The notes under the pieces were generated by a model, which saw only the letters and a program-made list of their open reading frames with translations, had not been told where the DNA came from and did no database searches. Position numbers and translations under genes: made by a program. From IMG/VR virus record IMGVR_UViG_3300035698_005065: a stretch of DNA of 20,000 nucleotides. One strand, 5' to 3'. Source of the DNA: an uncultured virus (IMG/VR IMGVR_UViG_3300035698_005065) (taxonomy: Duplodnaviria > Heunggongvirae > Uroviricota > Caudoviricetes). Shown piece by piece: positions 1-20,000 of this stretch (its first letter is position 1; each line of letters starts with the position of its first letter).

Positions 1-2
1 AC

Positions 3-5499: not shown

Positions 5500-5729
5500 T
5501 GAGCGACTTACCTTACGAGACGATCCCCCACCCGTTCAACAAAGGAGATAAGAGGCGCGTTTACGTGCTGCCGGTCATGACTCGCATAGAGTTAGAGGTC
5601 GACGACGACCTCGACCAATGCGAGATCGACTCTCTAATCAAGCGACTGCAGTCTCAAGAGATGCACCTGAGTTTGATAAGCGGCCGCTACAGAGCGCGGA
5701 GCTTAAAACCTACCAAAGACAACCAATGA
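5499..5729 (+). CDS. hypothetical protein
   Basis: 76 aa ORF, TAATG overlap upstream, ATGA overlap into paralog copy 1. Confidence 0.65.
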   Translation: MSDLPYETIPHPFNKGDKRRVYVLPVMTRIELEVDDDLDQCEIDSLIKRLQSQEMHLSLISGRYRARSLKPTKDNQ

Positions 5730-6187
5730 AATTAAAACAATCTGGGCCTCTTGCGCCCACCAATGAACCGTGGAATCTCATCCGCGATGCCATTTTCGAT
5801 CTTGGACTTCAAGAGCAGCAGGAGGGCGTGGAGATCGAGATGGAAAGTCGGGGAACGATGAACGAGTGGCACGATCAACGCGACGGCGCGTGTCACCAGT
5901 GCCTCGCCGGGTCTGTCATGTCCCGGCGCCTTGGCGTTAATACTGACGCCTCCGCTTTCCCGTTCAACTTCCCCGACGACGTGAGAGACAGGCTCTGCGC
6001 GCTGGACGATTTCCGCAACGGGGAGATTGGCTTCGCCTACCGCGAGCTGAAACTAGAACTCCCCTCCTCGATTCCTGAGCGCGTGTTTATCCCGGACTAC
6101 CACCACGGCCACGCCGCCTTCAAGGCATCCATGCTAAAACTCGCCGACCAATTAGAGGCGGCACAACCAACCAAAACCAAGCTATGA
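5726..6187 (+). CDS. WH-CxQC paralog family, copy 1 (6 aa insertion)
   Basis: ATG 5726 (MKLKQSGPLAP) in ATGA overlap; family motifs intact. Confidence 0.9.
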   Translation: MKLKQSGPLAPTNEPWNLIRDAIFDLGLQEQQEGVEIEMESRGTMNEWHDQRDGACHQCLAGSVMSRRLGVNTDASAFPFNFPDDVRDRLCALDDFRNGEIGFAYRELKLELPSSIPERVFIPDYHHGHAAFKASMLKLADQLEAAQPTKTKL

Positions 6188-6624
6188 TACTAGAACAATC
6201 CGGGGAACTCGCGCCCGCCAATGAACCGTGGACCCTCATCCGCGATGCGATCCACGACCTCGAACTTCAAGAGAAGCAGGAGGGCGTCGATGTCGATATG
6301 AGCGGCTGGCACGTTCCAATTATCAACGGCGCGTGTCACCAGTGCCTCGCCAGGTCTGTCATGTCCCGGCACCTTGGTATTGATACGGATAATCGCGCAG
6401 ACCCGTTCGACTACCCCGACGACGTAGCGGGCAGGCTCCGCGCGCTGAACTGGCTCAGCATCGGGGAGGTTAACGTTGCCTACCGCAGGCTGAAACTAGA
6501 GTTCCCCGATACGCTTCCTGAGCGCGTGCACATCCCGGGCTACCGCCACAGCCCGCCCGCCTTCAAGTCCGCTATGCTCGACCTCGCCGACCGATTAGAG
6601 TCGGCACAACCAGTCAACCAATGA
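6184..6624 (+). CDS. WH-CxQC paralog family, copy 2
   Basis: Family motifs, ATGA coupling. Confidence 0.9.
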   Translation: MILEQSGELAPANEPWTLIRDAIHDLELQEKQEGVDVDMSGWHVPIINGACHQCLARSVMSRHLGIDTDNRADPFDYPDDVAGRLRALNWLSIGEVNVAYRRLKLEFPDTLPERVHIPGYRHSPPAFKSAMLDLADRLESAQPVNQ

Positions 6625-7064
6625 AATTGAAACAATCCGGGCCTCTTGCGCCCGTCAATGAACCGTGGACCTTGATCCGCGACGCCATCCACGACCTGAC
6701 GCTTCAAGAAAAGCTGAAGGGCGTTAAGATTCGCATGTCTAATTGGCACTTACCAAGCGCCGGCGTGTGTCACCAATGTCTCGCCGGGTCTGTCATGTCG
6801 CGGCGCCTCGGCGTTGATACTAATGCTGACACGCGCCCACACGAATTACCAGACGTAGCGGCCAGGCTCCGCGCGCTGGAGGAGTTACGGTGCGGGGAGA
6901 TTAGAGCCGCCTACCACAAGCTGAAACTAGAGCGCCCCGCTTCGCTTCCTGTGCGCGTGCCTATCCCGAACTACCACCGCCGCGGTCCCTCCGCCTTCAA
7001 GGCAGCCATGCTAAAACTCGCCGACCGACTCGAGTTAGCGCAACCAGAACCAACCAAACCATGA
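6621..7064 (+). CDS. WH-CxQC paralog family, copy 3
   Basis: Family motifs, ATGA coupling. Confidence 0.9.
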   Translation: MKLKQSGPLAPVNEPWTLIRDAIHDLTLQEKLKGVKIRMSNWHLPSAGVCHQCLAGSVMSRRLGVDTNADTRPHELPDVAARLRALEELRCGEIRAAYHKLKLERPASLPVRVPIPNYHRRGPSAFKAAMLKLADRLELAQPEPTKP

Positions 7065-7507
7065 TACTAGAACAATCCGGGCCACTAGCGCCCGCCAACG
7101 AACCGTGGACCTTGATCCGCGACGCCATAAAAGACCTGGAACTGCAGGAGAAGCAGAAGGGCGTTAAGATCGAGATGGGCCGTTGGCACACCCCGTATCA
7201 TTACGGCAACGGCGTGTGTCACCAATGTCTCGCTGGGGCTGTCATGTCGCGGCGCCTCGGCGCTGATACTGACGCCTACATAGTTCCGACCAGCTTCCCC
7301 GCCGACGTTTTGGCCAGACTCGACGCGCTGGACGATTTACGCGGCGGGCATATTGGCGACGCCTACAGTTGGCTGGGACTAGAGCGTCCCTCCTCGATTC
7401 CTGAGCGCGTGTTTATCCCGCACTACCACTTCGGCCCAGCCGCCTTCAAGGCAGCCATGCTAAAACTCGCCGACCGATTAGAGGCGGCACAACCAACCAA
7501 ACCATGA
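7061..7507 (+). CDS. WH-CxQC paralog family, copy 4
   Basis: Family motifs, ATGA coupling. Confidence 0.9.
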   Translation: MILEQSGPLAPANEPWTLIRDAIKDLELQEKQKGVKIEMGRWHTPYHYGNGVCHQCLAGAVMSRRLGADTDAYIVPTSFPADVLARLDALDDLRGGHIGDAYSWLGLERPSSIPERVFIPHYHFGPAAFKAAMLKLADRLEAAQPTKP

Positions 7508-7935
7508 TACTAGAACAATCAGGGACACTCGCTCCCGCCAATGAACCGTGGACCCTCATCCGCGACGCCATCCACGACCTGACGCTCCAAGAGAAGCAGA
7601 AGGGCGTTGCGATCGATATGTTCGACTGGCACTACCCTCACGATACCGGGTGTTACCAGTGCCTCGCAGGTGTGGTAATGTCGCGCAGGCTAGACGCTGA
7701 TACTGATAACACCGCAAGCCCGTGCGGCTACCCCGACGACGTGAGAGACAGGCTCTACGCGCTGAACTCACTCCGCGGCGGGGCGATTGGCATCGCCTAC
7801 GATTATCTGGGGCTAAAGCGCCCCGCTTCTCTTACTGCGCGCGTAACTATCCCGGGCTACCACCGCGTCTCCCCAGCCGCCTTCAAGGCAGCCATGCTCA
7901 AACTCGCCGACCAACTCGAGGCGGCACACCATTAG
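7504..7935 (+). CDS. WH-CxQC paralog family, copy 5 (tail replaced, ends EAAHH)
   Basis: Family motifs; homology to other copies stops at GCGGCACA (~7928). Confidence 0.9.
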   Translation: MILEQSGTLAPANEPWTLIRDAIHDLTLQEKQKGVAIDMFDWHYPHDTGCYQCLAGVVMSRRLDADTDNTASPCGYPDDVRDRLYALNSLRGGAIGIAYDYLGLKRPASLTARVTIPGYHRVSPAAFKAAMLKLADQLEAAHH

Positions 7936-7959
7936 TCTCGCCTAAGCAGCGGCGCGGGG

Positions 7960-7965
7960 TAAAAT
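7960..7965 (+). promoter_or_regulatory. possible -10 element (TAAAAT) for a leaderless RNAP transcript
   Basis: TAAAAT at -12..-7 relative to ATG 7972; no SD; no -35 recognised. Confidence 0.3.
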
Positions 7966-7971
7966 AACCGC

Positions 7972-9183
7972 ATGACCGACGATATCCCGACCACCGGCCC
8001 AGAGGCTATTATGCACGCGTTGCAGCGTATGGACTTAGACGCCATCGAGAAGGAGCAACGCCAAGTCATCACCGACCGCAAGAAGACGAAAAGACCGCGG
8101 GCTGTGCGTTTATTGAACATCATCGCGGGCCTACGTAAGAACGAGATGCAGCCATCCGAACTGATGGTGCACAGTGTACCGGTGATACCTCCGAAGTTCC
8201 GCCCGTTCTCGGTTACCGGGAACACCTTCCTGCCCGGAGACGCCAACGAACTCTACCGTGATCTGATGGAGTATCAGCGCCTCTACAACAAGACAGAGGA
8301 GGTCATGGGTCGCGGTGCGGCCGGTGAAGTCTACGAGGATTTAAATAAAGCAGTGCGGGCCGTTTACGGGTATGGGGAATCTCCCAATCCCAAGACTCGT
8401 GCGCGTAAGGTTAAGGGATTCTTCACGGCCGTGACTGGGACGAACCCTAAGACGAGCTGGTTGCAAAGTAAGATGCTGTCGAAGCCTGTCGATACGGTCG
8501 GTCGCGGCGTCATTGTCCCGGACGCAGATCTGGGTATGGACGAGATCGGAATCCCGGAAGAGATGGGATGGAAGCAGTTCGGTAACTACGTGCAGCGCCG
8601 CCTAGTGCGTAGCGGTATGTCAGCGCCCGACGCCCTGAGACACTTGGTGAATCGCACCCCGCAAGCTAGGAAGGCTTTGGAGATGGAGTTGCCGGAGCGT
8701 CCGATTGTTTTGACCCGCTCGCCGAGTTGGATAAAGACCGGGGTCATCGGCCAGATCGCTAGGCTTGTCCCAGGCGACGCGATACAGATCAATAACTTTG
8801 TTTCGGCAGGACTCGGAGCCGACTTCGACGGGGATACCGTTTCCATCCACACCCCGTCGTCTGACGAGACTGTCAAGAATGTGAGGGAGAAGCTGATGGC
8901 TTCCCACATGCTTTGGTCTACGAAGGATCGGGACACCGCGAACGCAATACCTAAACACGAGAGTGTGCTTGGGCTCTCGCTCGGGCGCGACTCGGGAGGT
9001 AAGAAACGCTACTACGACACGGACGAGGATGCTATGGCCGCTATCGATAGCGGAGAGATGGATCTCAATGACGACGTCGAGATCGGCACTAACCCCAACC
9101 AACCAAACCATGATACTAGAACAATCAGGGGCACTCGCGCCCGCCAACGAGCCGTGGACCCTCATCCGCGACGCTATCCATGA
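7972..9183 (+). CDS. rpoC: DNA-directed RNA polymerase beta' subunit, stand-alone catalytic middle module (phage split RNAP)
   Basis: TGPEAI..MDLD, VPVIPPKFRP, DANELYRDL, LSKPVDTVGRGVIVPD, TRSPS, GADFDGD and PKHESVLGL are collinear with bacterial beta' GAEAI, PVLPPDLRP, DLNDLYR, GKRVDYSGRSVI, NRAPT, NADFDGD, PSQDVVLGL; the last ~30 codons run into repeat DNA. Confidence 0.93.
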   Translation: MTDDIPTTGPEAIMHALQRMDLDAIEKEQRQVITDRKKTKRPRAVRLLNIIAGLRKNEMQPSELMVHSVPVIPPKFRPFSVTGNTFLPGDANELYRDLMEYQRLYNKTEEVMGRGAAGEVYEDLNKAVRAVYGYGESPNPKTRARKVKGFFTAVTGTNPKTSWLQSKMLSKPVDTVGRGVIVPDADLGMDEIGIPEEMGWKQFGNYVQRRLVRSGMSAPDALRHLVNRTPQARKALEMELPERPIVLTRSPSWIKTGVIGQIARLVPGDAIQINNFVSAGLGADFDGDTVSIHTPSSDETVKNVREKLMASHMLWSTKDRDTANAIPKHESVLGLSLGRDSGGKKRYYDTDEDAMAAIDSGEMDLNDDVEIGTNPNQPNHDTRTIRGTRARQRAVDPHPRRYP

Positions 9184-9547
9184 CCTGACGCTTCAAGAGA
9201 AGCAGAAGGGCGTTAGGATCGAGATGAGCGACTGGCACTTCCCACACGACGGCGTGTGTCACCAATGTCTCGCTGGGGCTGTCATGTCGCGGCGCCTCGG
9301 CGTTGATACGAATGACAACAAGTTCCCGTTCGACTTCCCCAAAGACGTAGCGGCCAGGCTCCGCGCGCTGGACCATTTACGTTACGGGAGTATTGTCTTC
9401 GCCTACCGCAAGCTGGAACTAGTGCGCCCCGCTGAGCTTCCTTTTGATGTGACCGTCCCGGACTACCACCGCGGCCCAGCCGCCTTCAAGTCAGCCATGC
9501 TAAAACTCGCCGACCTACTCGAGTCGGCACAACCAACCAAACCATGA
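9110..9547 (+). CDS. WH-CxQC paralog family, copy 6
   Basis: ATG 9110 (MILEQSGALAP) after AACCAACCAAACC; the longer 8963 start is read-through in RNAP DNA. Confidence 0.9.
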   Translation: MILEQSGALAPANEPWTLIRDAIHDLTLQEKQKGVRIEMSDWHFPHDGVCHQCLAGAVMSRRLGVDTNDNKFPFDFPKDVAARLRALDHLRYGSIVFAYRKLELVRPAELPFDVTVPDYHRGPAAFKSAMLKLADLLESAQPTKP

Positions 9548-9990
9548 TACTAGAACAATCCGGGGCACTCGCTCCCGCCAATGAACCGTGGACCTTGATC
9601 CGCGACGCCATAAAAGACCTCGAACTTCAAGAGAAGCAGGCGGGCGTTAAGATCGAGATGCGCGACTGGCACTTCCCACGCGGCGGTGGTGTGTGTCACC
9701 AGTGCCTCGCCGGGTCTGTCATGTCGCGGCGCCTCGGCGTTGATACTGATTACGACGCAGACCCGTTCGACTACCCCGAAGACGTAGCGGACAGGCTCCG
9801 CGCGCTGGACGATTTACGCACCGGGGAGATTGGCTTCGCCTACCGCAAGCTGAAACTAGAGCGCCCTGATACGTTTCCTGCGCGCGTGCCTATCCCACGC
9901 TACGCAGACGGCCCAGCCGCCTTCAAGTCAGCCATGCTAAAACTCGCCGACCAATTAGAGGCGGCACAACCAGAACCAACCAAGCCATGA
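9544..9990 (+). CDS. WH-CxQC paralog family, copy 7
   Basis: Family motifs, ATGA coupling. Confidence 0.9.
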   Translation: MILEQSGALAPANEPWTLIRDAIKDLELQEKQAGVKIEMRDWHFPRGGGVCHQCLAGSVMSRRLGVDTDYDADPFDYPEDVADRLRALDDLRTGEIGFAYRKLKLERPDTFPARVPIPRYADGPAAFKSAMLKLADQLEAAQPEPTKP

Positions 9991-10433
9991 AATTGAAACA
10001 ATCCGGGACGCTCGCTCCCGCCAACGAACCGTGGACTCTCATCCGCGATGCCATTTTCGATCTTGAACTCCAAGAGAAGCAGAAGGGCGCGAAGATCGCG
10101 ATGGGCGACTGGCACTTACCACGCGACGGCGTGTGTTCGCAGTGCCTCGCCGGGTCTGTCATGTCGCGACGCCTCGGCGTTGATACGAATGACAACAAGT
10201 TCCCGTCCACCTTCCCCGAAGACATAGCGGCCAGGCTCTACGCGCTGGACCATTTCCGCAACGGGGACATTGACGACGCCTACCGCAAGCTGGAACTAGA
10301 GTGTCCCGCTTCGCTTCCTTATAGCGTGCCTATCCCGGACTACGAAAACGGCCCACCCGCCTTCAAGGCGGCCATGCTAAAACTCGCCGACCTACTCGAG
10401 TCGGCACAACCAAAACCAACCGCACGTCAATGA
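9987..10433 (+). CDS. WH-CxQC paralog family, copy 8
   Basis: Family motifs, ATGA coupling. Confidence 0.9.
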   Translation: MKLKQSGTLAPANEPWTLIRDAIFDLELQEKQKGAKIAMGDWHLPRDGVCSQCLAGSVMSRRLGVDTNDNKFPSTFPEDIAARLYALDHFRNGDIDDAYRKLELECPASLPYSVPIPDYENGPPAFKAAMLKLADLLESAQPKPTARQ

Positions 10434-11585: not shown

Positions 11586-12026
11586 ATGAAATTAAAACAA
11601 TCCGGGCCTCTTGCGCCCGCCAATGAACCGTGGACCTTGATCCGCGACGCCATCCACGACCTGACGCTTCAAGAAAAGCTGAAGGGTGTTATGATCAATA
11701 TGAGTAATTGGCACTTACCAAGCGCCGGCGTGTGTCACCAATGTCTCGGCGGGTCTGTCATGTCGAGGCGTCTCGGCGTTGATACTAATGCTTGCGCAAA
11801 CCCGATCAACTACCCCAAAGACGTAGCGGCCAGACTCCACGCGCTGGACGATTTCCGCATCGGGGATATTTACGCCGCCTACGACAGACTGGACCTAGAT
11901 CGTCCCGCTTCGCTTCCTCTTGATGTGACCGTCCCGAGCTACCACCGCCCACCCGCCTTCAAGGCAGCCATGCTCGCAATCGCCGACCTACTCGAGGCGG
12001 CACAACCAACCAAAACCAAGCTATGA
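11586..12026 (+). CDS. WH-CxQC paralog family, copy 9
   Basis: Family motifs. Confidence 0.9.
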   Translation: MKLKQSGPLAPANEPWTLIRDAIHDLTLQEKLKGVMINMSNWHLPSAGVCHQCLGGSVMSRRLGVDTNACANPINYPKDVAARLHALDDFRIGDIYAAYDRLDLDRPASLPLDVTVPSYHRPPAFKAAMLAIADLLEAAQPTKTKL

Positions 12027-12469
12027 TACTAGAACAATCCGGGGCACTCGCGCCCGCCAATGAACCGTGGACCCTCATCCGCGATGCGATCCACGACCTC
12101 GAACTTCAAGAGAAGCAGAAGGGCGTTGCGATCGTGATGGGTAATTGGCACGACCCATACGGCGGCGGCGTGTGTCACCAGTGTCTCGCCGGGTCTGTCA
12201 TGTCTCGGCGTCTCGGTGCTGATACGGATAACTACTCAAACCCCAGAGGCTACCCCGAAGACGTAGAGGCCAGGCTCCTCGCGCTGGAAGATTTACGCGG
12301 CGGGCATATTGGCGACGCCTATAGTTGGCTGGGACTAGAGCGTCCCTCCTCGACTCCTGAGCGCGTGTTTATCCCGCACTACCACTTCGGCTCAGACGCC
12401 TTCAAGGCAGCCATGCTAAAACTCGCCGACCTACTCGAGTCGGCACAACCAAAACCAACCAAACCATGA
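12023..12469 (+). CDS. WH-CxQC paralog family, copy 10
   Basis: Family motifs, ATGA coupling. Confidence 0.9.
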   Translation: MILEQSGALAPANEPWTLIRDAIHDLELQEKQKGVAIVMGNWHDPYGGGVCHQCLAGSVMSRRLGADTDNYSNPRGYPEDVEARLLALEDLRGGHIGDAYSWLGLERPSSTPERVFIPHYHFGSDAFKAAMLKLADLLESAQPKPTKP

Positions 12470-12912
12470 TATTAGAACAATCCGGGCCGCTAGCGCCCGC
12501 CAATGAACCGTGGACCTTGATTCGCGACGCCATAAAAGACCTGGAACTGCAGGAGAAGCAGGAGGGCGTTAAGATCGAGATGAACAGCTGGCACGACCCA
12601 TACGGCGGCGGCGCGTGTCATCAATGCCTCGCCGGGTCTGTCATGGCGCGGCGCCTCGGTGTTGATACTGGCGCCGTCGCGTTCCCAGACAACTTCCCCG
12701 ACGACGTGAGAGACAGGCTCCGCGCGCTGGAGGAGTTACGGTGCGGGGCGATTGGCGACGCCTACGTTTATCTGGGGCTAGAGCACCCCGATACGCTTCC
12801 TCGGGATACGTGTATCCCGAGCTACCGCGACGACCCAGACGACTTCAAGGAATCCATGCTCGCACTCGCCGACCAATTAGAGGCGGCACAACCAACCAAA
12901 ACCAACCAATGA
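12466..12912 (+). CDS. WH-CxQC paralog family, copy 11
   Basis: Family motifs, ATGA coupling. Confidence 0.9.
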   Translation: MILEQSGPLAPANEPWTLIRDAIKDLELQEKQEGVKIEMNSWHDPYGGGACHQCLAGSVMARRLGVDTGAVAFPDNFPDDVRDRLRALEELRCGAIGDAYVYLGLEHPDTLPRDTCIPSYRDDPDDFKESMLALADQLEAAQPTKTNQ

Positions 12913-13355
12913 TATTAGAGCAATCCGGGACACTCGCGCCCGCCAACGAACCGTGGACCTTGATCCGCGACGCCATCCATGACCTCGAACTCCAAGAGAA
13001 GCAGGAGGGCGTTAGGATCGATATGGGTAATTGGCACGACCCATACGGCAGCGTGTGCCTGCAATGTCTCGCCGGGTCCGCCATCTCGCGGCGCCTCGGC
13101 GTTGATACTGATGACGACGCAGAACCGATCGACTACCCCGAAGACGTGAGAGACAGGCTCCTCTCGATTGACTGTTTCCGTACCGGGGATATTGGCACCG
13201 CCTACGAGTATCTGGGGCTAGAGCACCCCGCTTCTCTTACTGCGCGCGTAACTATCCCGAACTACCACCGAAACGGCCCAGCAGCCTTCAAGGAGGCCAT
13301 GCTAAAACTCGCCGACCAACTCGAGGCGGCACAACCAACCAAAACCAAGCTATGA
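12909..13355 (+). CDS. WH-CxQC paralog family, copy 12
   Basis: ATG 12909 in ATGA overlap; the 12741 start is off-frame read-through of copy 11. Confidence 0.9.
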   Translation: MILEQSGTLAPANEPWTLIRDAIHDLELQEKQEGVRIDMGNWHDPYGSVCLQCLAGSAISRRLGVDTDDDAEPIDYPEDVRDRLLSIDCFRTGDIGTAYEYLGLEHPASLTARVTIPNYHRNGPAAFKEAMLKLADQLEAAQPTKTKL

Positions 13356-13798
13356 TACTAGAACAATCCGGGACACTCGCGCCCGTCAATGAACCGTGGA
13401 CCTTGATCCGCGACGCCATTTTCGATCTTGAACTTCAAGAGAAACAGGAGGGCGTCGATGTCGATATGGACCATTGGCACTTCCCATACGGCGGCGGCGC
13501 GTGTCATCAATGTCTCGCCGGGTCTGTCATGTCGCGACGCCTCGGCGTTGATACTGACGCCCACAAGTCCCCAGACAACTACCCCAAAGACGTAGCGGTC
13601 AGACTCCACGCGCTGGACGATTTACGGTGCGGGGAGATTGATACCGCCTATCGCGAGCTGAAACTAGAACTCCCCTCCTCGATTCCTGAGCGCGTGCCTA
13701 TCCCACGCTACCGAAACGGCCCCTCCGCCTTCAAGGCAGCCATGCTAAAACTCGCTGACCAATTAGAGGCGGCACAACCAGAACCAACCAAGCCATGA
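13352..13798 (+). CDS. WH-CxQC paralog family, copy 13
   Basis: Family motifs, ATGA coupling. Confidence 0.9.
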   Translation: MILEQSGTLAPVNEPWTLIRDAIFDLELQEKQEGVDVDMDHWHFPYGGGACHQCLAGSVMSRRLGVDTDAHKSPDNYPKDVAVRLHALDDLRCGEIDTAYRELKLELPSSIPERVPIPRYRNGPSAFKAAMLKLADQLEAAQPEPTKP

Positions 13799-14400
13799 TA
13801 TTAGAACAATCAGGGCCTCTCGCTCCCGCCAATGAACCGTGGACCTTGATCCGCGACGCCATCCACGACCTCGAACTCCAAGAGAAGCTGAAGGGCGTTA
13901 AGATCAATATGGACCATTGGCACATCTCATACGACGGCGTGTGTTCGCAGTGTCTCGGCGGGTCTGTCATGTCGAGGCGTCTCGGTGCTGATACGGATGC
14001 TCGCGCAGACCCGTTCGACTACCCCGACGACGTGAGAGACAGGCTCTACGCGCTGGACAATTTCCGCATCGGGGAGATTGGCTACGCCTACCGCAGGCTG
14101 AAACTAGAGCGCCCTGATACGCTTCCTAAGCGCGTGGATGTTCCGCGCTACCGCCGCGGCCCCTCCGCCTTCAAGGCAGCCATGCTAAAACTCGCCGACC
14201 AACTCGAGGCGGCACAACCAACCAGCCGTGAAATGAATTACAGAAAAAAAGAACCCAGCGGTCAAAACTCCAAGTGGCGCGAGCGTGCACGTAGAAAGCG
14301 AGCGTGTGACGACATCATTCTCCGCGTCACTTTCGCTGTTATTGTGTCGGCAGTCGTGGGTGCTATTGCATTAGCCATCGCAGCCTATAATCGATCATGA
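13795..14400 (+). CDS. WH-CxQC paralog family, copy 14, fused in frame to a basic/transmembrane tail
   Basis: Family domain continues without stop into MNYRKK...VTFAVIVSAVVGAIALAIAAY (internal ATG 14233). Confidence 0.85.
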   Translation: MILEQSGPLAPANEPWTLIRDAIHDLELQEKLKGVKINMDHWHISYDGVCSQCLGGSVMSRRLGADTDARADPFDYPDDVRDRLYALDNFRIGEIGYAYRRLKLERPDTLPKRVDVPRYRRGPSAFKAAMLKLADQLEAAQPTSREMNYRKKEPSGQNSKWRERARRKRACDDIILRVTFAVIVSAVVGAIALAIAAYNRS

Positions 14401-14612: not shown

Positions 14613-14804
14613 ATGACTACTAACGAAATCATCTTCAACAGCATCGACGCCTTTGCCTTCCTCTTATGGTTCATCGGATGCTCGCTTCTCGCCTTAGCTC
14701 TTATTATGCTCCCTCACGATGGTGACGATGACGTTCCCCCGGACGCAAGTTGGCTCGATAAAAATCAAACGGCACGGGGGCGGCGGTTATCGCCGTCGTT
14801 GTGA
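14613..14804 (+). CDS. small membrane protein
   Basis: 63 aa with hydrophobic AFAFLLWFIGCSLLALALIML. Confidence 0.55.
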   Translation: MTTNEIIFNSIDAFAFLLWFIGCSLLALALIMLPHDGDDDVPPDASWLDKNQTARGRRLSPSL

Positions 14805-14956
14805 TGACGATTGGCTATTCCATCAAACTCATCGCGAAAAACTTACTCGGGCAGTGAGTATTAAATCAACGCTAGGGGTGTCGGTCACTGTTAAGATTCT
14901 AAGGCGCGGCCGGGAGCGACACTCCCAAGGCGGCCTACATCTGTGGGGGCGGTCAC

Positions 14957-15427
14957 GTGGTCGATCGTAACGCGCCGCACCGCCCGCACTGGTTACGCAC
15001 CACCTCGCGAGAGGTGACGTGTAATATCTGCGGCCGCCGAGGGCCCTACTCTATCCAATCCGAGGTTTTGTGCGCGCCGTTCCCCGACGCGCCATACCGC
15101 CTAGTGGTGTGCGGCGGGAGGGACTACGAGTTTACGGATGCGGACAGGACGCTTCTAGACGCGATCCCGATCGCAGTGGTGATCAGCGGAAACGCCAAGG
15201 GAGCTGACAGATGCGGAGAGCTCTACGCAGTTAGCAGGGGAATACGAACCGAGCGATACCCGGCGGACTGGGACAAATATGGTCACCAAGCCGGGGCGAA
15301 GCGTAATAGGCTCATGGCGCAGAAGGCCACAGCCGTCGCTGCGTTTCCGGGAGGATCCGGGACGGCGGACATGATCAAGCAGGCCGCCATATTTAAACTG
15401 ACGCTATTTGACTTCTCAAGGCGGTAA
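14957..15427 (+). CDS. SLOG superfamily protein (DUF2493 / YspA-like)
   Basis: LVVCGGRDY, VISGNAKGAD, YPADWDKYG..AG..RN..M, AFPGGSGTADM motifs; start codon uncertain. Confidence 0.88.
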   Translation: MVDRNAPHRPHWLRTTSREVTCNICGRRGPYSIQSEVLCAPFPDAPYRLVVCGGRDYEFTDADRTLLDAIPIAVVISGNAKGADRCGELYAVSRGIRTERYPADWDKYGHQAGAKRNRLMAQKATAVAAFPGGSGTADMIKQAAIFKLTLFDFSRR

Positions 15428-15466
15428 AGCCATGCGGCCCCAACTGCCATCAACGAAATAACCAAT

Positions 15467-15907
15467 ATGAAGATAACTTTTAAAAAAGCAGAAGTCGCGC
15501 ACCTCGTTGCGGCGACAAAGTCCGCAGCCACGTGCACGGTCCCCTACACGGGAGAAGGCTGGGGGGTTCCCGAGGAAACTACGCCAGGAATTTGCGTCAT
15601 CGGCGACGCCGGCATCTACATGATGTCAAACCGCACCAGCGACGAAGGAAGCGCGAATCACATCAACGAGGCTACAGGGGGCGATCAAAGAAATGCAGCC
15701 TACGCCCAGGAGTGCGACCCTCAATCCGTAGAAAGCTGTTACGATACGAAGCGCGAGGCGTTCGGCGACGACGGCGTCGAGTTCATAGAGCTGGACACTA
15801 TACAGGAGTGGATAGACAAAACCCCCGGGGACATACTCAAGATGAATATGACGCCGGACTCTCTGTCGTTCTTATTCGTAAGCTCCCCCTCCGCGCGCGT
15901 AAGGTAA
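15467..15907 (+). CDS. DUF3085-like protein
   Basis: PGICVIGDAGIYMMSN...AYAQECDP...FGDDGVEFI pattern recalled from DUF3085. Confidence 0.78.
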   Translation: MKITFKKAEVAHLVAATKSAATCTVPYTGEGWGVPEETTPGICVIGDAGIYMMSNRTSDEGSANHINEATGGDQRNAAYAQECDPQSVESCYDTKREAFGDDGVEFIELDTIQEWIDKTPGDILKMNMTPDSLSFLFVSSPSARVR

Positions 15908-16031
15908 CTCTAGCCGTCGTAGAGATACGGGCACGGAGCGACGCGGATCGAGAAGTTAACCTGGGAGACCCCATCGCTAAAACTGCTCAGTTGCGCAGCC
16001 TCACCTTAATCAACACCAACAAAACTAAAAA

Positions 16032-16229
16032 ATGAAACCAACATTCAAAACTATATTCGTCACTGACGACACCGAAGAATTCGACCGACAAATAACCGAC
16101 CTTCTCCGTCAGGGCTACCGACTCCACGGATCCCCCCGCTCGCACGTTATCCACCCGCCGAGACACACGGACGCCCAGTCCCTCGTTTCTCTCACTCAAC
16201 ACCTCTACCACACAGGCAATGAGAATTAA
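16032..16229 (+). CDS. DUF1737-like small protein
   Basis: EEFDRQITDLLRQGYRLHGSP pattern; A/C-rich leader. Confidence 0.62.
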   Translation: MKPTFKTIFVTDDTEEFDRQITDLLRQGYRLHGSPRSHVIHPPRHTDAQSLVSLTQHLYHTGNEN

Positions 16230-16815
16230 CGAATGGCGATCCGAGGCGTATAAAAACTTCACGGACGTCCTCCACGACACATGCATCCCGGGATTCTCCT
16301 ACCGCATTAGAGGCGCGCCTACGCGTCGCGCTGCCGTTTCTCAAGAACTCGTGAGGGCGCTTCAGGCCGGCCAGACTCCTGATATTGGTGATGCCCGCGC
16401 GTTGGGGCACGACCGATACGCTCTGCCGGGTAAGATTGTCTTGCGCATCGCCGGCCCGCTTGTGGTCGACGTAAAAAAAACGGGAACGTCGGTCCCAGTG
16501 TCTCTCCCTATCGGTAAGATGCTCGCCGAGCAGCGCCGCGAGATGTTGCTCGCGATCATCGACGCCGGTAGTAGCGTCAGGTCTCGTATCAGCCCACGAG
16601 GCACCGAGCTGCACTATCAACGGGACATCCGCGTCGTCCGGAGGTTCGCTTGGCTTCCCGTGACCGCAAAGGATCAGAGCGGCACCCCGCGACGCCTGTG
16701 GTTTCGATCTTACTACCAAGAGCAGACCTATGACGAAGGCCTATCATGCGGAGTCATCAACGAGTTCATCGAAGGTCGCTGGTATGAAACTAAAAGCAAA
16801 TTCTACATCAAATGA
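16219..16815 (+). CDS. hypothetical protein
   Basis: 198 aa ORF; C-terminal RRFAWLPV..RLW motif seen in small phage proteins. Confidence 0.7.
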   Translation: MRINEWRSEAYKNFTDVLHDTCIPGFSYRIRGAPTRRAAVSQELVRALQAGQTPDIGDARALGHDRYALPGKIVLRIAGPLVVDVKKTGTSVPVSLPIGKMLAEQRREMLLAIIDAGSSVRSRISPRGTELHYQRDIRVVRRFAWLPVTAKDQSGTPRRLWFRSYYQEQTYDEGLSCGVINEFIEGRWYETKSKFYIK

Positions 16816-17390
16816 CACCACTTACTATCAGCATTCTCCTTGTTCTAGTATTGCTGGACCTGACGATGCATGCTTTACTTCACGCCCGTTACTTGACGCG
16901 CGATAACCTCAGCGACCGCCGTCAAAAGGAAGAAATTCTTCAAGCCCAACGGCGGTATCGCAAGGCAGCAGAAGCGCGGTGCACGGATGTAATAAGAGTT
17001 CTCGCGCTTTACCAGGTTAACACTACCGCGGCCTTATGGGCTGCTGACTACGTGTCGCGTGACCAGGCACATGATGACCCGGGTGTTGAGGAGTCACTGC
17101 GCCGGGCGGTGGAGGGTGCACGTGTGTCTGATTCCCTGCGCGCACTTGACGACGCGCCTGTGAAGGAGTCCGCCGTCACGCTGTTCAACCGACACCTCAG
17201 GTCGTTCACCTCAGCGTTTGCTGACGTGTATGTAACAGACCTGCGGCCCGACGGGACCGGCACTCTGTGCATCATTGACACCGATGAGGGAGTTGCCCGC
17301 CCCACGTATCACGAATTCGATAACTTACTAGAGGTCGTGTTTAAGTTAAAAAAATCAAAAGAGGATTATGAAATACCTACCAGCGATTGA
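16812..17390 (+). CDS. hypothetical protein with N-terminal membrane anchor
   Basis: ATGA coupled; hydrophobic LTISILLVLVLLDL N-terminus. Confidence 0.72.
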   Translation: MTPLTISILLVLVLLDLTMHALLHARYLTRDNLSDRRQKEEILQAQRRYRKAAEARCTDVIRVLALYQVNTTAALWAADYVSRDQAHDDPGVEESLRRAVEGARVSDSLRALDDAPVKESAVTLFNRHLRSFTSAFADVYVTDLRPDGTGTLCIIDTDEGVARPTYHEFDNLLEVVFKLKKSKEDYEIPTSD

Positions 17391-17679
17391 CCTATGGATG
17401 CCCGGCATCTCCGCGGCGATACTCAGTAACCAGCTTCGCTTACAAGTGGGGCAGTGGGTATACTGCGGGAGCGACAAGCCCTCACGGTATGTGAAGCACA
17501 CAGGGCGGCCCATATGGGCCGCCCACCCTGAGGGGGTAAAAGGGACCAAGGAATCCTTCAAGAGCCTCCTGAGGGCGTCCAGGGGATCAAATCAACCAAC
17601 CATCAAACCAATGAAGATATCCGAAAACTACAAGGCGCTCACTGAGTGTGAAAACAAGAACATCACGCGCCATGAGTAA
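17368..17679 (+). CDS. hypothetical protein
   Basis: 103 aa ORF with GAGG upstream; internal AACC leader and in-frame ATG at 17611. Confidence 0.65.
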   Translation: MKYLPAIDLWMPGISAAILSNQLRLQVGQWVYCGSDKPSRYVKHTGRPIWAAHPEGVKGTKESFKSLLRASRGSNQPTIKPMKISENYKALTECENKNITRHE

Positions 17680-17971
17680 AGAGGCAGGAATGGCGGCCGT
17701 GCAGCATAGCGAAATCAGTTACTACGTGGACAGCCGGCACGTAACGACGTCGCCGCGCGTCATGGCTCGCGCGTTGATAAATAAGCTGCGGAGTAAAAAG
17801 GCCCAGCGCGCGTCTCGCCGCTACATCATCGCCGCCGTTTTCAACCGTTGGGCGCGTAACATGTGGGAATACAAATACGTCATGGGGTCAGTTCCTAGGA
17901 GTTACCCCAGTTACGTCGCTCGTTACTTGTGGGACGACAATAAGAAGGAGGTCGTGATCCGAGAACCTTAG
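17672..17971 (+). CDS. hypothetical basic protein
   Basis: In-frame ATG 17672 (MSKEAG) overlapping the previous stop. Confidence 0.65.
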   Translation: MSKEAGMAAVQHSEISYYVDSRHVTTSPRVMARALINKLRSKKAQRASRRYIIAAVFNRWARNMWEYKYVMGSVPRSYPSYVARYLWDDNKKEVVIREP

Positions 17972-18047
17972 AGGAGACATCGTGAGCGGCTACTACGACA
18001 GACGCTACATGCATACGCAGGAACATGAACCGCTAAAAAGTTAGCAC

Positions 18048-18075
18048 AACCAACCAACCAACCAACCAACCAACC
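18048..18075 (+). repeat. (AACC)7 microsatellite at the head of array D
   Basis: Seven perfect AACC units read directly. Confidence 0.95.
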
Positions 18076-18086
18076 AAAACCAAGCC

Positions 18087-18530
18087 ATGATACTAGAACA
18101 ATCCGGGACACTAGCGCCCGCCAATGAACCGTGGACTCTTATCCGCGATGCGATCCACGACATCGAACTTCAAGAGAAGCAGGAGGGCGTCGATGTCGCT
18201 ATGGACCAGTGGCACTTCCCACTCGACGGCGTGTGTTATCAATGTCTCGCCGGGTCTGTCATGTCGCGGCGTCTCGGCGCTGATACGGATGACCACAAGT
18301 CCCCAATCAACTTCCCCGACGACGTAGAGGCCAGGATCCGCGCGCTGAACTTACTCCGCGGCGGGGCGATTGGCATCGCCTACCGCGAGCTGAAACTAGA
18401 ACTCCCCGCTTCGCTTCCTTATAGCGTTCCTATCCCGGACTACGAAAACGGCCCCTCCGCCTTCAAGGCATCCATGCTAAAACTCGCTGACCGATTAGAG
18501 GCGGCACAACCAAAACCAACCAAGCCATGA
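18087..18530 (+). CDS. WH-CxQC paralog family, copy 15
   Basis: Family motifs. Confidence 0.9.
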   Translation: MILEQSGTLAPANEPWTLIRDAIHDIELQEKQEGVDVAMDQWHFPLDGVCYQCLAGSVMSRRLGADTDDHKSPINFPDDVEARIRALNLLRGGAIGIAYRELKLELPASLPYSVPIPDYENGPSAFKASMLKLADRLEAAQPKPTKP

Positions 18531-18970
18531 AATTGAAACAATCAGGGACAATAGCTCCCGCCAATGAACCGTGGACCTTGATCCGCGACGCGATCCACGA
18601 CCTCGAACTCCAAGAGAAGCAGGAGGGCGTCGAGATCGATATGACCGCGTGGCACGATCAACGCGACGGCTCGTGCCAACAATGTCTCGCCGGGTCCGTC
18701 ATGTCCCGGCGTCTCGGCACTGATACGGATGACAAAAAGTTCCCAGACAGCTTCCCCAGGGACGTAGAGGCCAGGCTCTACGCGCTGGAATATTTCCGGC
18801 TCGGGGAGGTTGACGAAGCCTACGAGTATCTGGGGCTAGAGCACCCCGCTTCTCTTACTGCGCGCATACCTATCCCGGGCTACCACCGCGGCCCCTCCGC
18901 CTTCAAGGCAGCCATGCGCAAACTCGCTGACCGATTAGAGGCGGCACAATCAAAACCAACCAAACCATGA
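18527..18970 (+). CDS. WH-CxQC paralog family, copy 16
   Basis: Family motifs, ATGA coupling. Confidence 0.9.
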   Translation: MKLKQSGTIAPANEPWTLIRDAIHDLELQEKQEGVEIDMTAWHDQRDGSCQQCLAGSVMSRRLGTDTDDKKFPDSFPRDVEARLYALEYFRLGEVDEAYEYLGLEHPASLTARIPIPGYHRGPSAFKAAMRKLADRLEAAQSKPTKP

Positions 18971-19410
18971 TATTAGAACAATCCGGGACACTCGCGCCCG
19001 CCAACGAACCGTGGACCTTGATCCGCGACGCCATCCACGACCTAGAGCTCCAAGAGAAACAGGAGGGTGTTAGGATCGATATGGGTATTTGGCACGCCCG
19101 CGGCGGCGTCACGTGTCATCAATGCCTCGCCGGGTCTGTCATGTCCCGGCGTCTCGGCGCTGATACTGATGATCATGCGTCCCCAGACAACTTCCCCAGA
19201 GACGTGAGAGCCAGGCTCCGCGCGCTGAACTCACTCCGCGGCGGGGCGATTGGCATCGCCTACGATTATCTGAGGCTAAAGCGCCCCGCTTCGCTTCCCG
19301 ATCACGTGCCTATCCCGCGCTACCGCTTCGGCCCAGACGCCTTCAAGGCAGCCATGCTAAAACTCGCCGACCGACTCGAGTCAGCGCAACCAAAACCAAC
19401 CAAACCATGA
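18967..19410 (+). CDS. WH-CxQC paralog family, copy 17
   Basis: Family motifs, ATGA coupling. Confidence 0.9.
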   Translation: MILEQSGTLAPANEPWTLIRDAIHDLELQEKQEGVRIDMGIWHARGGVTCHQCLAGSVMSRRLGADTDDHASPDNFPRDVRARLRALNSLRGGAIGIAYDYLRLKRPASLPDHVPIPRYRFGPDAFKAAMLKLADRLESAQPKPTKP

Positions 19411-19853
19411 TATTAGAACAATCCGGGACACTCGCGCCCGCTAATGAACCGTGGACCTTGATCCGCGACGCCATCCACGACATCGAACTCCAAGAGAAAC
19501 AGGAGGGCGTTACGGTCGAGATGGACAGCTGGCACGACCCATACGGCGGCAGCGCGTGTCATCAATGCCTCGCCGGGTCTGTCATGTCGCGGCGTCTCGG
19601 CGTTGATACTGGCGCCGTCGCGTTCCCAGACGACTACCACATAGACGTAGAGGCCAGACTCTGCGCGCTGGACGATTTCCGGCGCGGGGGTATTCACGTT
19701 GCCTACCGCAGGCTGAAACTAGAGTTCCCCGGCACACTTCCTGCGCGCGTGCCTATCCCGGAATACGAAGACGATCCATCCGCCTTCAAGTTAGCCATGC
19801 TCGCACTCGCCGACCGACTCGAGTCAGCGCAACCAAAACCAACCAAGCCATGA
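19407..19853 (+). CDS. WH-CxQC paralog family, copy 18
   Basis: Family motifs, ATGA coupling. Confidence 0.9.
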   Translation: MILEQSGTLAPANEPWTLIRDAIHDIELQEKQEGVTVEMDSWHDPYGGSACHQCLAGSVMSRRLGVDTGAVAFPDDYHIDVEARLCALDDFRRGGIHVAYRRLKLEFPGTLPARVPIPEYEDDPSAFKLAMLALADRLESAQPKPTKP

Positions 19854-20000
19854 TACTAGAACAATCCGGGACACTCGCGCCCGCCAACGAACCGTGGACC
19901 TTGATCCGCGACGCCATCCATGACCTCGAACTCCAAGAGAAGCAGGAGGGCGTTAGGATCGATATGAACGAGTGGCACGACCCAATTAGAGGCGGCGGTG
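19850..20000 (+). CDS. WH-CxQC paralog family, copy 19 (partial, cut by window end)
   Basis: MILEQSGTLAPANEPWTLIRDAIHDLELQEKQEGVRIDMNEWHDPIRGGG from ATG 19850. Confidence 0.88.
   Translation, partial: MILEQSGTLAPANEPWTLIRDAIHDLELQEKQEGVRIDMNEWHDPIRGGG

What the first reader, a model, noticed from the sequence alone, without database searches (positions are those of the whole stretch)
5726..20000. Repertoire of at least 19 hypervariable paralogs with framework/variable architecture in a large phage
Seen: 19 copies of a ~147 aa gene in four tandem arrays (5+3+6+at least 5). All 18 complete copies are open frames and no two are identical. Near-invariant frameworks (M[IK]L[EK]QSG.LAP.NEPWTLIRDAI, WH, CxQCL, SRRLG.DT, R[LI]xAL, AFKxAMLxLADxLE) alternate with about four hypervariable segments: around WH, after LG.DT, between AL and AY, and around IP.Y. 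Framework DNA is nearly identical even at synonymous sites while variable segments differ at many amino acids. Inference: a young gene accordion under diversifying selection producing a panel of binders on one scaffold, for example anti-defence or host-protein inhibitors. I do not recognise the family or any described function.
Basis: partly seen in the sequence, partly recalled or inferred. Interest (0 to 1): 0.9.

Follow-up and report, generated by a model that had tools for sequence, protein, structure and literature searches.

The report
Phage multigene family of variable small proteins
A large uncultured salt-lake phage carries at least 27 intact, all-different tandem copies of one small protein of unknown function, whose core is kept constant while its surface is driven to change and is reshuffled between copies, which looks like a built-in panel of recognition proteins.

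Summary
The window holds 19 head-to-tail copies (5+3+6+5, the last cut by the window end). A contig that overlaps the window extends this to 27 intact, mutually different copies in five arrays, and a 28th lies on the same 160-kb contig. Separate assemblies reproduce the arrays, and copy-specific unitigs have the depth of the single-copy flanks, so this is not an assembly artefact.

Framework DNA is not near-identical at synonymous sites (pS 0.29; copies are 72-87% identical), so this is an old, maintained repertoire and not a young accordion.

Diversifying selection is supported. The tree-free, cross-validated dN/dS at variable sites is 1.6. My M2a vs M1a test gives 2ΔlnL = 192, against at most 14.8 in 19 recombinant null simulations. 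Copies are mosaics made by short-tract gene conversion, which is also seen between population variants.

The protein folds confidently (pLDDT 97) but has no PDB relative and no Pfam or PHROG family. It belongs to a large unannotated phage family (4,472 clusters), usually single-copy in replication/recombination modules.

Function is inferred, not shown. A co-expressed panel of binders or inhibitors against variable host or rival targets is the most likely reading (about 0.4).

The parts
5726..6187 (+). copy 1 (153 aa), first of array 1
6184..6624 (+). copy 2 (146 aa); its ATG overlaps the preceding stop (ATGA)
6621..7064 (+). copy 3 (147 aa)
7061..7507 (+). copy 4 (148 aa)
7504..7935 (+). copy 5 (143 aa), last of array 1; lacks the C-terminal tail that the next copy's leader would encode
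9110..9547 (+). copy 6 (145 aa), first of array 2; in a population variant its first variable segment carries copy 7's sequence
9544..9990 (+). copy 7 (148 aa), the copy that was modelled
9987..10433 (+). copy 8 (148 aa), last of array 2
11586..12026 (+). copy 9 (146 aa), first of array 3
12023..12469 (+). copy 10 (148 aa)
12466..12912 (+). copy 11 (148 aa)
12909..13355 (+). copy 12 (148 aa)
13352..13798 (+). copy 13 (148 aa)
13795..14400 (+). copy 14 (201 aa), last of array 3; the family domain is followed by a basic linker and a hydrophobic C-terminal stretch, a probable membrane anchor
18087..18530 (+). copy 15 (147 aa), first of array 4
18527..18970 (+). copy 16 (147 aa)
18967..19410 (+). 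copy 17 (147 aa)
19407..19853 (+). copy 18 (148 aa)
19850..20000 (+). copy 19, cut by the window end. It is complete (148 aa) on the overlapping contig L014, where array 4 runs to 9 copies and a fifth array of 4 follows

Best explanation
This is a long-standing multigene family of a large uncultured salt-lake phage. It has at least 27 intact, mutually different paralogues of a roughly 147-aa alpha/beta protein in five head-to-tail arrays, and a 28th on the same 160-kb contig.

Shown:
- About half of the codons are under strong purifying selection. These include the hydrophobic core and a His/Cys/Cys cluster together with the conserved Asp, Glu, Arg and Tyr.
- About a fifth of the codons are driven to change. 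They lie around the WH...CxQC hairpin, in the loop at residues 64-78, in the 3-4-residue periodic positions 79/82/86/90 of helix 79-92 (the pattern of one helix face), and in the long loop at residues 103-123.
- Short-tract gene conversion moves these segments between copies, so every copy is a different mosaic.

Inferred:
- Genes within an array are joined by ATGA stop/start overlaps and are probably made together from polycistronic messages.
- Each product presents a different recognition surface on one scaffold.
- The set serves to bind or inactivate a polymorphic class of targets, most likely host defence or nuclease proteins that differ between host strains. That would make it a germline counter-defence or host-takeover panel.
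For: The copies are real:
- Searches give 27 of 27 intact and distinct copies.
- Contigs of four metagenome assemblies match at 99.99-100%: Ga0222646_100050 covers the whole window, Ga0222634_1000248 covers 13102-20000, Ga0222653_1007423 covers 8776-11978, and Ga0222631_1000011 covers 1-6968.
- 24 salt-lake runs hold the stretch, 17 of them with at least half of the sampled words.
- The four copy-internal unitigs listed have depth 10.3-17.9 (X1) and 47.6-73.1 (X5), against 12.3-15.4 and 65.8-75.2 for the flanking single-copy pieces.

Selection:
- NG86 over 27 copies: framework dN 0.009, dS 0.36; variable codons dN 0.705, dS 0.445.
- Sites picked in 13 copies and measured in the other 14 give omega 1.60 (1.40-1.87), above 1 in 300 of 300 splits.
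- My own M1a/M2a fit: lnL -6316.9 vs -6220.8, 2ΔlnL 192, with 20% of sites at omega 2.95 and 53% at 0.055.
- 19 null simulations with a new tree every 12 codons gave at most 14.75.
- The 20 sites with P>0.95 show up to 12 different residues and are 58% polar or charged, against 34% at conserved sites.
- Net charge of the copies ranges from -13 to +9.

Mosaicism:
- Site incompatibility rises from 0.47 at 1-5 nt to 0.75-0.80 at 21-80 nt. PHI was reached by 0 of 1000 permutations for windows of 3-20 informative sites.
- 8 of 351 pairs share runs longer than the permuted global 95% maximum.
- One population variant differs from the window only at 9246-9278, where copy 6 carries copy 7's segment. 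Other contigs carry chimeras, such as the N-half of copy 16 joined to the C-half of copy 24.

Fold and family:
- pLDDT 96.9.
- The family has 4,472 clusters.
- Its relatives sit in phage replication/recombination modules: 18 of 26 function-labelled neighbour hits.

Coupling: 22 of 27 starts overlap the previous stop as ATGA.
Against: No experiment or homology ties the family to any function. PADLOC, Pfam, PHROGs and NCBIfam gave nothing.

The conserved polar cluster (His43, Cys51, Cys54, Asp25, Glu30, Arg92, Tyr120, near-invariant across 148 diverse members) looks more like a metal or catalytic site than a passive scaffold.

I could not get model coordinates. That the variable residues form one surface therefore rests only on helical periodicity and residue polarity.

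Secondary-structure classes chosen a priori all give omega below 1 (helix 0.54, strand 0.59, coil 0.66). The signal is site-specific, not segment-wide.

The cross-validation halves share ancestry. The likelihood test assumes one tree on heavily recombinant data, and 3 of 19 null simulations exceeded the nominal 5.99. PHI at the conventional window of about 100 nt was not significant (231 of 1000).

No RNA data exist (0 RNA runs), so co-expression is inferred.
Confidence: 0.42

Rival explanations
1. The family is an enzyme or metal-dependent effector. Its conserved His/Cys/Cys/Asp/Glu centre does the chemistry, and the hypervariable loops around it set substrate specificity. The arrays then encode a set of isoenzymes that act on different variants of a host molecule, which could be a protein, a nucleic acid or a nucleotide signal.
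For: His43, Cys51, Cys54, Asp25, Glu30, Arg92 and Tyr120 are at least 90% conserved across 148 diverse members, and H, C, C, D, E, R are invariant in 20 distant members. The first hypervariable segment directly flanks WH and CxQC. Cys54 sits at the N-terminus of helix 55-63. Relatives lie among nucleotide- and DNA-metabolism genes.
Against: There is no similarity to any solved enzyme fold: Foldseek E above 1, best VIA Z 4.3, and profile vs PDB sequences E above 1. Some family members lack one of the two cysteines (P0150, P0062). The domain is small, about 130 aa.
Confidence: 0.2
2. The copies are immunity-type or exclusion proteins. Each neutralises a different toxin or effector made by competing bacteria, prophages or phages, as in the orphan immunity-gene arrays of polymorphic toxin systems. 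The phage carries them to protect the infected cell or to exclude rivals.
For: Tandem arrays of diverged small paralogues with variable surfaces are typical of immunity genes (recalled from established knowledge; Zhang et al. 2012, PMC3482391, appeared in the listing but I did not read it). Related arrays occur in a bacterial chromosome: Bryobacterales MAG, with 7, 6 and 4 family matches at three loci. One copy has a membrane anchor.
Against: No toxin-like gene was recognised next to any array in the window, among 25 ORFs scanned with Pfam and PHROGs. None was found beside the Bryobacterales arrays either, where the interleaved genes are DUF29. Single-copy relatives sit in replication modules.
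Confidence: 0.12
3. There is no adaptive diversification. The variable segments are simply unconstrained surface loops of redundant duplicates, and recombination inflates the apparent dN/dS.
For: Recombination is extreme and inflates the likelihood test: 3 of 19 null simulations exceeded 5.99. Whole-gene omega is 0.60, and every secondary-structure class is below 1.
Against: Relaxed sites should approach omega 1, not exceed it. The cross-validated tree-free omega is 1.60, above 1 in 300 of 300 splits. The observed 2ΔlnL of 192 and omega 2.95 compare with null maxima of 14.75 and 1.56. All 27 of 27 copies are intact with framework omega 0.03, so the copies are not decaying.
Confidence: 0.08
4. 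This is an assembly artefact: strain variants of a single-copy gene strung together by the assembler.
For: Some assemblies break inside the arrays. The 77,760-bp contig ends at window 6968 and a 3,203-bp contig spans only 8776-11978. Logan contigs are fragmented in the arrays and show 5 alternative joints. No long reads were available.
Against: The same order of copies appears at 99.99-100% identity in contigs of four assemblies. Copy-specific unitigs have the depth of the flanks in two runs, not about 1/27 of it. Unique non-family genes, a tRNA and an RNA polymerase gene separate the arrays.
Confidence: 0.03

Closest known systems
Pfam DUF6197 (PF19698), e.g. gp47 and gp72 of Gordonia phage Nebulosus
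   Same: Both are small phage proteins of unknown function (about 120-140 aa) next to replication genes. Second copies and two-domain tandem fusions are reported in cluster A15 phages (PMC10586128, passages read). It is the nearest named cluster by language-model features. One family member (P0074) scores 23.4 bits against the model.
   Different: No window copy matches the model, even at E up to 10 (0 of 18). The model finds nothing in the two viral records searched, which do hold family copies. Profile-vs-sequence comparison with gp47 and gp72 is not significant (E 0.19 and 0.11). DUF6197 has no known function, so membership would explain nothing.
Multigene families of large eukaryotic DNA viruses (ASFV MGF110/360/505; poxvirus ankyrin and host-range families). 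Recalled, not read here
   Same: Many diverged tandem paralogues in a large dsDNA virus, maintained intact, and thought to deal with variable host immunity or host range.
   Different: Those families are in eukaryotic viruses, have other folds and are mostly larger proteins. I found no phage counterpart of this size in print.
Gene accordions and segmental amplification of counter-defence genes (poxvirus K3L and T4 dmd-tifA, both recalled; T6 SegB, PMC13096335, search listing and start of abstract only)
   Same: Tandem multiplication of a viral gene in a host-virus conflict.
   Different: Accordions are recent, near-identical and unstable copies that act through dosage. Here the copies are 72-87% identical, with dS of about 0.37, all different, and identical across samples.
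Diversity-generating retroelements (DGR) of phages
   Same: Targeted variability in defined segments of a phage protein on a constant scaffold.
   Different: No reverse transcriptase was seen among 95 ORFs scanned over about 103 kb. There is no adenine bias: the polymorphic fraction is A 0.63, C 0.68, G 0.62, T 0.48. Variation is held in many germline copies and moved by gene conversion.
Recombining paralogue repertoires, e.g. the staphylococcal tandem lipoprotein (lpl) cluster (PMC2568036, search listing and start of abstract only) and antigenic-variation cassettes (recalled)
   Same: Tandem paralogues whose segments are exchanged by homologous recombination. The unit of exchange is not the ORF.
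   Different: Here all copies appear to be expressed genes in a virus, not silent donor cassettes feeding one expression site.

Membership tests
Pfam DUF6197 (PF19698) | Match to the Pfam model at or above the gathering score (24.6 bits) | tested here: not met
   0 of 18 window copies match at E up to 10. 0 of 25 wider-family proteins reach the cut-off, the best being P0074 at 23.4 bits. The model finds nothing in G001 or G003.
Pfam DUF6197 (PF19698) | Profile-level homology to bona fide members (Nebulosus gp47, gp72) | tested here: inconclusive
   hhalign of A2 against the single sequences gives E 0.19 and 0.11. The nearest named Atlas clusters are DUF6197 at 0.90-0.93, which is a lead only. 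No DUF6197 alignment was available for a profile-profile test.
Diversity-generating retroelement target | Reverse transcriptase and template repeat nearby | tested here: not met
   No RT family among 25 + 58 + 12 ORFs scanned with PHROGs over the roughly 103-kb composite. The whole genome is not held.
Diversity-generating retroelement target | Variation confined to positions that are adenine in the template | tested here: not met
   The fraction of sites that are polymorphic is similar for all four major bases: A 0.63, C 0.68, G 0.62, T 0.48. Indels are also present.
Gene accordion (recent amplification) | Near-identical tandem copies, including at synonymous sites | tested here: not met
   Pairwise nucleotide identity is 0.716-0.873. 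dS is 0.37 overall and 0.36 in framework codons.
Gene accordion (recent amplification) | Copy number varies between closely related genomes | tested here: inconclusive
   Contigs of four assemblies agree exactly where they overlap. However, small contigs from other samples carry chimeric or reordered copies, and Logan contigs show 5 alternative joints.
Multigene family under diversifying selection (generic kind) | Many intact paralogues, with a class of codons at dN/dS above 1 alongside a conserved framework | tested here: met
   27 of 27 intact. Cross-validated omega 1.60. M2a vs M1a 2ΔlnL 192, against at most 14.75 in 19 recombinant null simulations. Framework omega 0.03.
Polymorphic-toxin immunity gene array | A cognate toxin gene, or a toxin-domain cassette, next to the array | tested here: not met
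   No toxin family among 25 window ORFs in Pfam or PHROGs, nor among the ORFs beside the Bryobacterales arrays. Unknown toxins would be missed.
Known anti-phage defence or candidate defence proteins (PADLOC) | Match to a PADLOC model | tested here: not met
   0 of 15 proteins match, counting family copies, a distant member and array neighbours.
Known anti-defence protein families | Homology or fold similarity to a characterised anti-defence protein | tested here: inconclusive
   No library of anti-defence families was on hand. No PDB chain reached Foldseek E of 0.001 or VIA Z of 5.

The most novel reading that the evidence does not exclude
A phage carries a germline, combinatorially reshuffled recognition repertoire. 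It consists of dozens of co-expressed copies of one novel scaffold whose surfaces are kept different by selection and are continually recombined by short-tract gene conversion. This lets one virus neutralise many allelic forms of host immunity (or rival weapons) at once. It would be a viral analogue of plant R-gene clusters or of the multigene families of large eukaryotic viruses, and the first of its size in a bacteriophage. The same scaffold has expanded independently in other phages and in a bacterial chromosome.
Probability: 0.3. Interest if true: 0.85.

Novelty: new variant of a known kind. Interest (0 to 1): 0.72.

Why it matters
Phage genomes are compact, and large families of diverged paralogues are rare in them. 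At least 27 intact copies, about 12 kb or some 7% of a genome of 160-185 kb, is a heavy investment and points to a strong, many-sided selective pressure.

If the copies are inhibitors of host defence or nuclease proteins, three things follow:
- A phage could hold a broad-spectrum counter-defence panel in its germline.
- The panel would be a ready-made natural library on a small, confidently folding scaffold with no solved relative.
- A very large unannotated phage family (4,472 clusters at 50% identity) would get its first functional handle.

The case is also a clean example of diversifying selection and short-tract gene conversion acting together in a virus of bacteria.

Tried and rejected
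- Database look-ups that found nothing for the family: Pfam, PHROGs, NCBIfam and PADLOC, and PDB sequences by profile (best E 1.8). Foldseek against PDB found 0 matches at E of 0.001 or less. VIA-align against 48,161 chains gave a best Z of 4.3. BFVD gave only uncharacterised phage proteins: A0A110B685 at TM 0.62 and R9ZYW5 of Cellulophaga phage phi17:2.
- megablast of the window, and tblastn of copy 7, P0092 and P0068, against 50,697 GenBank phage records: no match.
- The whole genome is not held.
- Earlier notes of this scan hold nothing on this family.
- The search for fused forms found only a tandem two-domain protein (P0074) and P0218, whose precomputed Pfam label PF26948 is not in the Pfam copy at hand.
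I repeated it with the narrower A3.
- A viral-contig scan with the close clade (A4) found only the same IMG/VR contig.
- DGR was rejected.
- A special A/C-rich leader was rejected as a family feature. The whole phage lacks Shine-Dalgarno sites: 12 of 82 other ORFs and 0 of 27 copies have one.
- Sigma-70 promoter scan in 5000-20000: 1 site against 6.4 expected. Terminator-like sites: 21 against 15.2 expected. Neither is informative.
- Copies in one array are not significantly more alike than copies in different arrays: 0.787 vs 0.781, with 123 of 2000 permutations reaching the difference.
- PHI at the conventional window was not significant.
- The literature search for DUF3085/YAcAr returned only papers on Caiman yacare.
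- I did not run complex prediction. No binding partner is proposed that it could test.
- Logan contigs leave parts of the arrays uncovered or fragmented. That says nothing either way.

Full report
1. THE OBSERVATION

The window has 19 copies of a roughly 147-aa gene, all on the + strand, in four runs of 5, 3, 6 and 5. The last copy is cut by the window end, and none lies on the other strand. The 18 complete copies are open and all different. Their alignment has 51 invariant columns and 61-73% identity to the first copy. A profile built from them finds exactly these 19 places in the window.

The window is identical over 13102-20000 to the first 6,899 bases of locus L014, a piece of a 30,760-bp metagenome contig. 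Reading on along that locus, array 4 has nine copies and a fifth array of four follows. That makes 27 intact copies, no two alike, within about 19 kb.

A further copy (P0217) lies on the 160,313-bp contig that also carries the window's proteins, so the phage has at least 28.

Within arrays the ATG of each gene overlaps the previous stop as ATGA (22 of 27 starts). Array-terminal copies (5, 23, 27) lack the short C-terminal tail, because that tail is encoded by the A/C-rich leader of the next copy.

Copy 14 carries an extra basic linker and a hydrophobic C-terminal stretch, a probable membrane anchor. Copy 20 has a four-residue deletion in helix 1 and an eight-residue internal duplication. Copy 25 has an insertion at the same place as that duplication.

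2. REAL OR ARTEFACT

- Contigs of four metagenome assemblies match the window at 99.99-100%. One covers all of it, one covers 13102-20000, one covers 8776-11978 and one covers 1-6968. Some assemblies break inside arrays.
- 24 public salt-lake runs hold the stretch, 17 of them with half of the sampled words or more. None is RNA.
- In the Logan contigs of two runs, the four listed pieces that lie inside single copies have depth 17.9, 11.1, 10.3, 16 (X1) and 73.1, 63.4, 47.6, 65.7 (X5). The flanking single-copy pieces have 14.7, 12.3, 13.6, 15.4 and 71.4, 65.8, 75.2, 72.1. If strain variants of one gene had been strung together, each variant would have a small fraction of the flank depth.
- The tool warns that contig depth is a rough figure, and 812 further pieces were not shown. 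Five alternative joints were reported. I read them as other mosaic copies or rearranged variants, but I did not resolve them.
- No long reads were available.

3. THE GENOME

Upstream, on the 77,760-bp IMG/VR contig that ends at window 6968 (CheckV 42% complete), lie these genes:
- a large terminase
- an SbcC-like protein
- several helicases, including a DnaB-like and a Dda-like helicase
- a primase
- a split DNA polymerase
- a UvsX-like recombinase
- a Holliday-junction resolvase
- an RNA polymerase beta piece
- a peptide deformylase
- a DNA methyltransferase
- an NAD-dependent ligase

In the window, an RNA polymerase beta' piece with the catalytic domain (7972-9109) sits between arrays 1 and 2. 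A tRNA-Met sits between arrays 2 and 3. A YAcAr/SLOG protein and a DUF3085 protein lie between arrays 3 and 4.

This is a large phage with its own multisubunit RNA polymerase and its own recombination proteins. It lacks Shine-Dalgarno sites throughout (12 of 82 other ORFs, 0 of 27 copies), so the A/C-rich leader of the copies is not special to them.

4. EVOLUTION OF THE COPIES

Age of the copies.
- Over the 27 copies (copy 14 trimmed to its domain; columns with fewer than half of the comparisons dropped), Nei-Gojobori counts give dS 0.37 and dN 0.22 overall.
- The 64 framework codons have dS 0.36 and dN 0.009.
- The 49 codons with pN of 0.25 or more have dS 0.445 and dN 0.705.
- Nucleotide identity between copies is 0.716-0.873.
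- The tree is star-like, with 3 of 24 nodes at 90% support or more.
- Copies in the same array are not significantly closer than copies in different arrays.

The repertoire is therefore old and maintained, not young.

Diversifying selection.
- Choosing sites by pN is circular. I therefore chose them in 13 copies and measured them in the other 14: omega 1.60 (2.5-97.5% of splits 1.40-1.87), above 1 in 300 of 300 splits. The halves share ancestry, so this control is partial.
- Secondary-structure classes chosen a priori give omega 0.54-0.66. The signal belongs to particular sites.
- My own implementation of the M1a and M2a codon models used F3x4 frequencies and IQ-TREE branch lengths with one scale factor. 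It gives lnL -6316.9 and -6220.8, so 2ΔlnL is 192. It puts 53% of sites at omega 0.055, 27% at 1 and 20% at 2.95. Twenty sites have P>0.95.
- Recombination inflates this test. I therefore simulated 19 alignments under the fitted M1a with an independent tree every 12 codons and analysed them the same way. The largest 2ΔlnL was 14.75, 3 of 19 exceeded 5.99, and the largest omega2 was 1.56. The observed value lies far outside this null.
- Two of the 20 sites (144, 145) lie in the tail that doubles as the next gene's leader and should be discounted.

Mosaicism.
- Incompatibility between informative sites rises from 0.47 at 1-5 nt to 0.75-0.80 at 21-80 nt and then stays flat.
- PHI was reached by 0 of 1000 permutations for windows of 3-20 informative sites. 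It was reached by 231 of 1000 for the conventional window of about 100 nt. This fits very short exchange tracts.
- 8 of 351 pairs share runs of identical polymorphic sites longer than the 95th percentile of the permuted global maximum. The longest run is 56, against a permuted maximum of 49.
- Exchange is seen directly. A 1,418-bp contig from another sample differs from the window only at 9246-9278, where copy 6 has acquired copy 7's first variable segment.
- Other small contigs carry chimeras, for example the N-half of copy 16 joined to the C-half of copy 24, followed by a near-copy-7.
- Each variable segment has 25-27 distinct alleles among the 27 copies.
- There is no adenine bias, and no reverse transcriptase was seen, so this is not a DGR.

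5. THE PROTEIN

AlphaFold2 with a 148-sequence alignment gives pLDDT 96.9 and pTM 0.91. The model has a helix at 15-30, a three-stranded sheet at 35-53, helices at 55-63, 79-92 and 96-102, a long loop, and a helix at 124-141.

Nothing in the PDB resembles it by Foldseek or VIA-align. In BFVD only uncharacterised phage proteins do.

Across 148 diverse members these residues are at least 90% conserved: Pro15, Leu18, Ile19, Ala22, Asp25, Leu26, Glu30, Met39, Trp42, His43, Cys51, Cys54, Ala56, Gly57, Ala87, Arg92, Gly94, Tyr120, Phe127 and Ala135. The polar ones suggest a metal or active site.

The selected sites are 41, 44 and 46 (beside Trp-His); 71, 73 and 75 (loop); 79, 82, 86 and 90 (spaced 3-4 residues apart along helix 79-92, the pattern expected of one helix face); 93, 98 and 102; 109, 113, 116 and 119 (long loop); and 137. 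They carry up to 12 residue types, with radical exchanges. Net charge of the copies ranges from -13 to +9.

I could not read the model's coordinates. A single surface patch is therefore inferred, not shown.

6. THE WIDER FAMILY

A profile search of 1.84 billion cluster representatives finds 4,472 proteins at E of 0.001 or less and 2,114 at 1e-10 or less. None of those I scanned is covered by Pfam or NCBIfam. The nearest named clusters by language-model features are DUF6197, but the model and the profile comparisons do not establish membership.

Copy number elsewhere. In 20 of 26 IMG/VR loci the gene is single within ±4 kb. Five loci have 2-4 matches (this count includes the remaining one, L054, as single). 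A Bryobacterales MAG chromosome has 7, 6 and 4 matches at three loci, interleaved with DUF29 genes. A 229-kb viral contig has four. The scaffold has thus expanded more than once, and the present phage is the extreme case.

Neighbours. Next to single-copy relatives, 18 of the 26 function-labelled PHROG hits are DNA/RNA/nucleotide-metabolism genes (131 ORFs scanned). They include RecE/RecT-like pairs directly downstream, helicases, primase, exonucleases and HNH endonucleases. The YAcAr/SLOG family (phrog_289) recurs in three contexts, and phrog_1818 in three.

No relative was found in 50,697 GenBank phage records by tblastn.

7. READING

Shown:
- a real, large, old family of intact paralogues
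- a conserved core
- a class of sites under diversifying selection
- combinatorial reshuffling by short-tract gene conversion

Inferred:
- co-expression through coupled translation
- variable residues forming a recognition surface
- targets that are polymorphic host (or rival) macromolecules

I favour a panel of binders or inhibitors, with counter-defence or nuclease inhibition suggested by the position in replication/recombination modules (0.42). The conserved His/Cys/acid cluster keeps an enzymatic reading alive (0.2). An immunity-type role is possible (0.12). Neutral relaxation (0.08) and artefact (0.03) are unlikely.

8. COMPARISON AND NOVELTY

It works like the multigene families of large eukaryotic DNA viruses and like recombining R-gene or immunity-gene clusters. 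It is not an accordion and not a DGR.

Literature searches found no described phage family of this kind or size. The only paper that mentions DUF6197 reports one or two copies and two-domain fusions in Gordonia phages. Supplements were not consulted.

I rate it a new variant of a known kind, with interest 0.72.

Noticed in passing
window 7972-9183: RNA polymerase beta' piece between arrays 1 and 2. It matches Pfam Rpb1 domain 2 (E 1.2e-16) and phrog_25354 positions 171-546 of 1216. It covers only about a third of a beta' subunit. Its open frame runs 74 nt into copy 6, and the last bases before copy 6 look like the usual inter-copy junction (…CAACCAACCAAACC-ATGA). The rest of beta' was not found in the roughly 103 kb examined.
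   Followed up: partly
window 10803-10879: tRNA-Met (CAT) between arrays 2 and 3 (ARAGORN; Rfam 64.5 bits).
   Followed up: yes
L014 8950-9040 and 9922-10012; L019 six places (1288-3779): A conserved two-hairpin intergenic element of about 75 nt. It starts right after a stop codon and ends at the next ATG, and it brackets single family copies and small genes. There are 8 copies with 49 invariant columns, and the first stem shows compensatory changes. It folds at -35.1 kcal/mol (z -3.8). It is absent from the window and from Rfam. It could be a phage terminator/promoter or an RNA-processing signal.
   Followed up: partly
window 14957-15427 and 15467-15907: A YAcAr/SLOG protein (PF10686, phrog_289) and a DUF3085 protein lie between arrays 3 and 4. 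The same SLOG family lies within about 1 kb of single-copy relatives in two other contigs, L029 and L041.
   Followed up: partly
whole window and the roughly 103-kb composite: The phage has almost no Shine-Dalgarno sites (12 of 82 ORFs, about chance). Start codons are preceded by A/C-rich stretches. It also encodes a peptide deformylase and an NAD-dependent ligase, so the host is probably a bacterium that does not rely on SD initiation.
   Followed up: partly
L032, L033, L035 (one Bryobacterales MAG chromosome): Seventeen matches to the family at three loci, as tandem genes of about 156-208 aa with a different C-terminal part. They are interleaved with DUF29 proteins and a repeated intergenic sequence. 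Two of the loci look like near-duplicates of each other.
   Followed up: partly
L034 3767-4366: Next to two family members in a Nitrospirales-binned contig lies a 200-aa protein whose N-terminal part carries a Cys…CLAG-like motif, followed by pentapeptide repeats (PF00805, E 4.9e-25). It may be a fusion of a related domain to a DNA-mimic-type repeat.
   Followed up: no
window 4866-5255 and 5260-5499: Just upstream of array 1 lie a DUF6915 protein (E 4e-39; phrog_8143) and a small protein of phrog_1761/5120. All are of unknown function.
   Followed up: no
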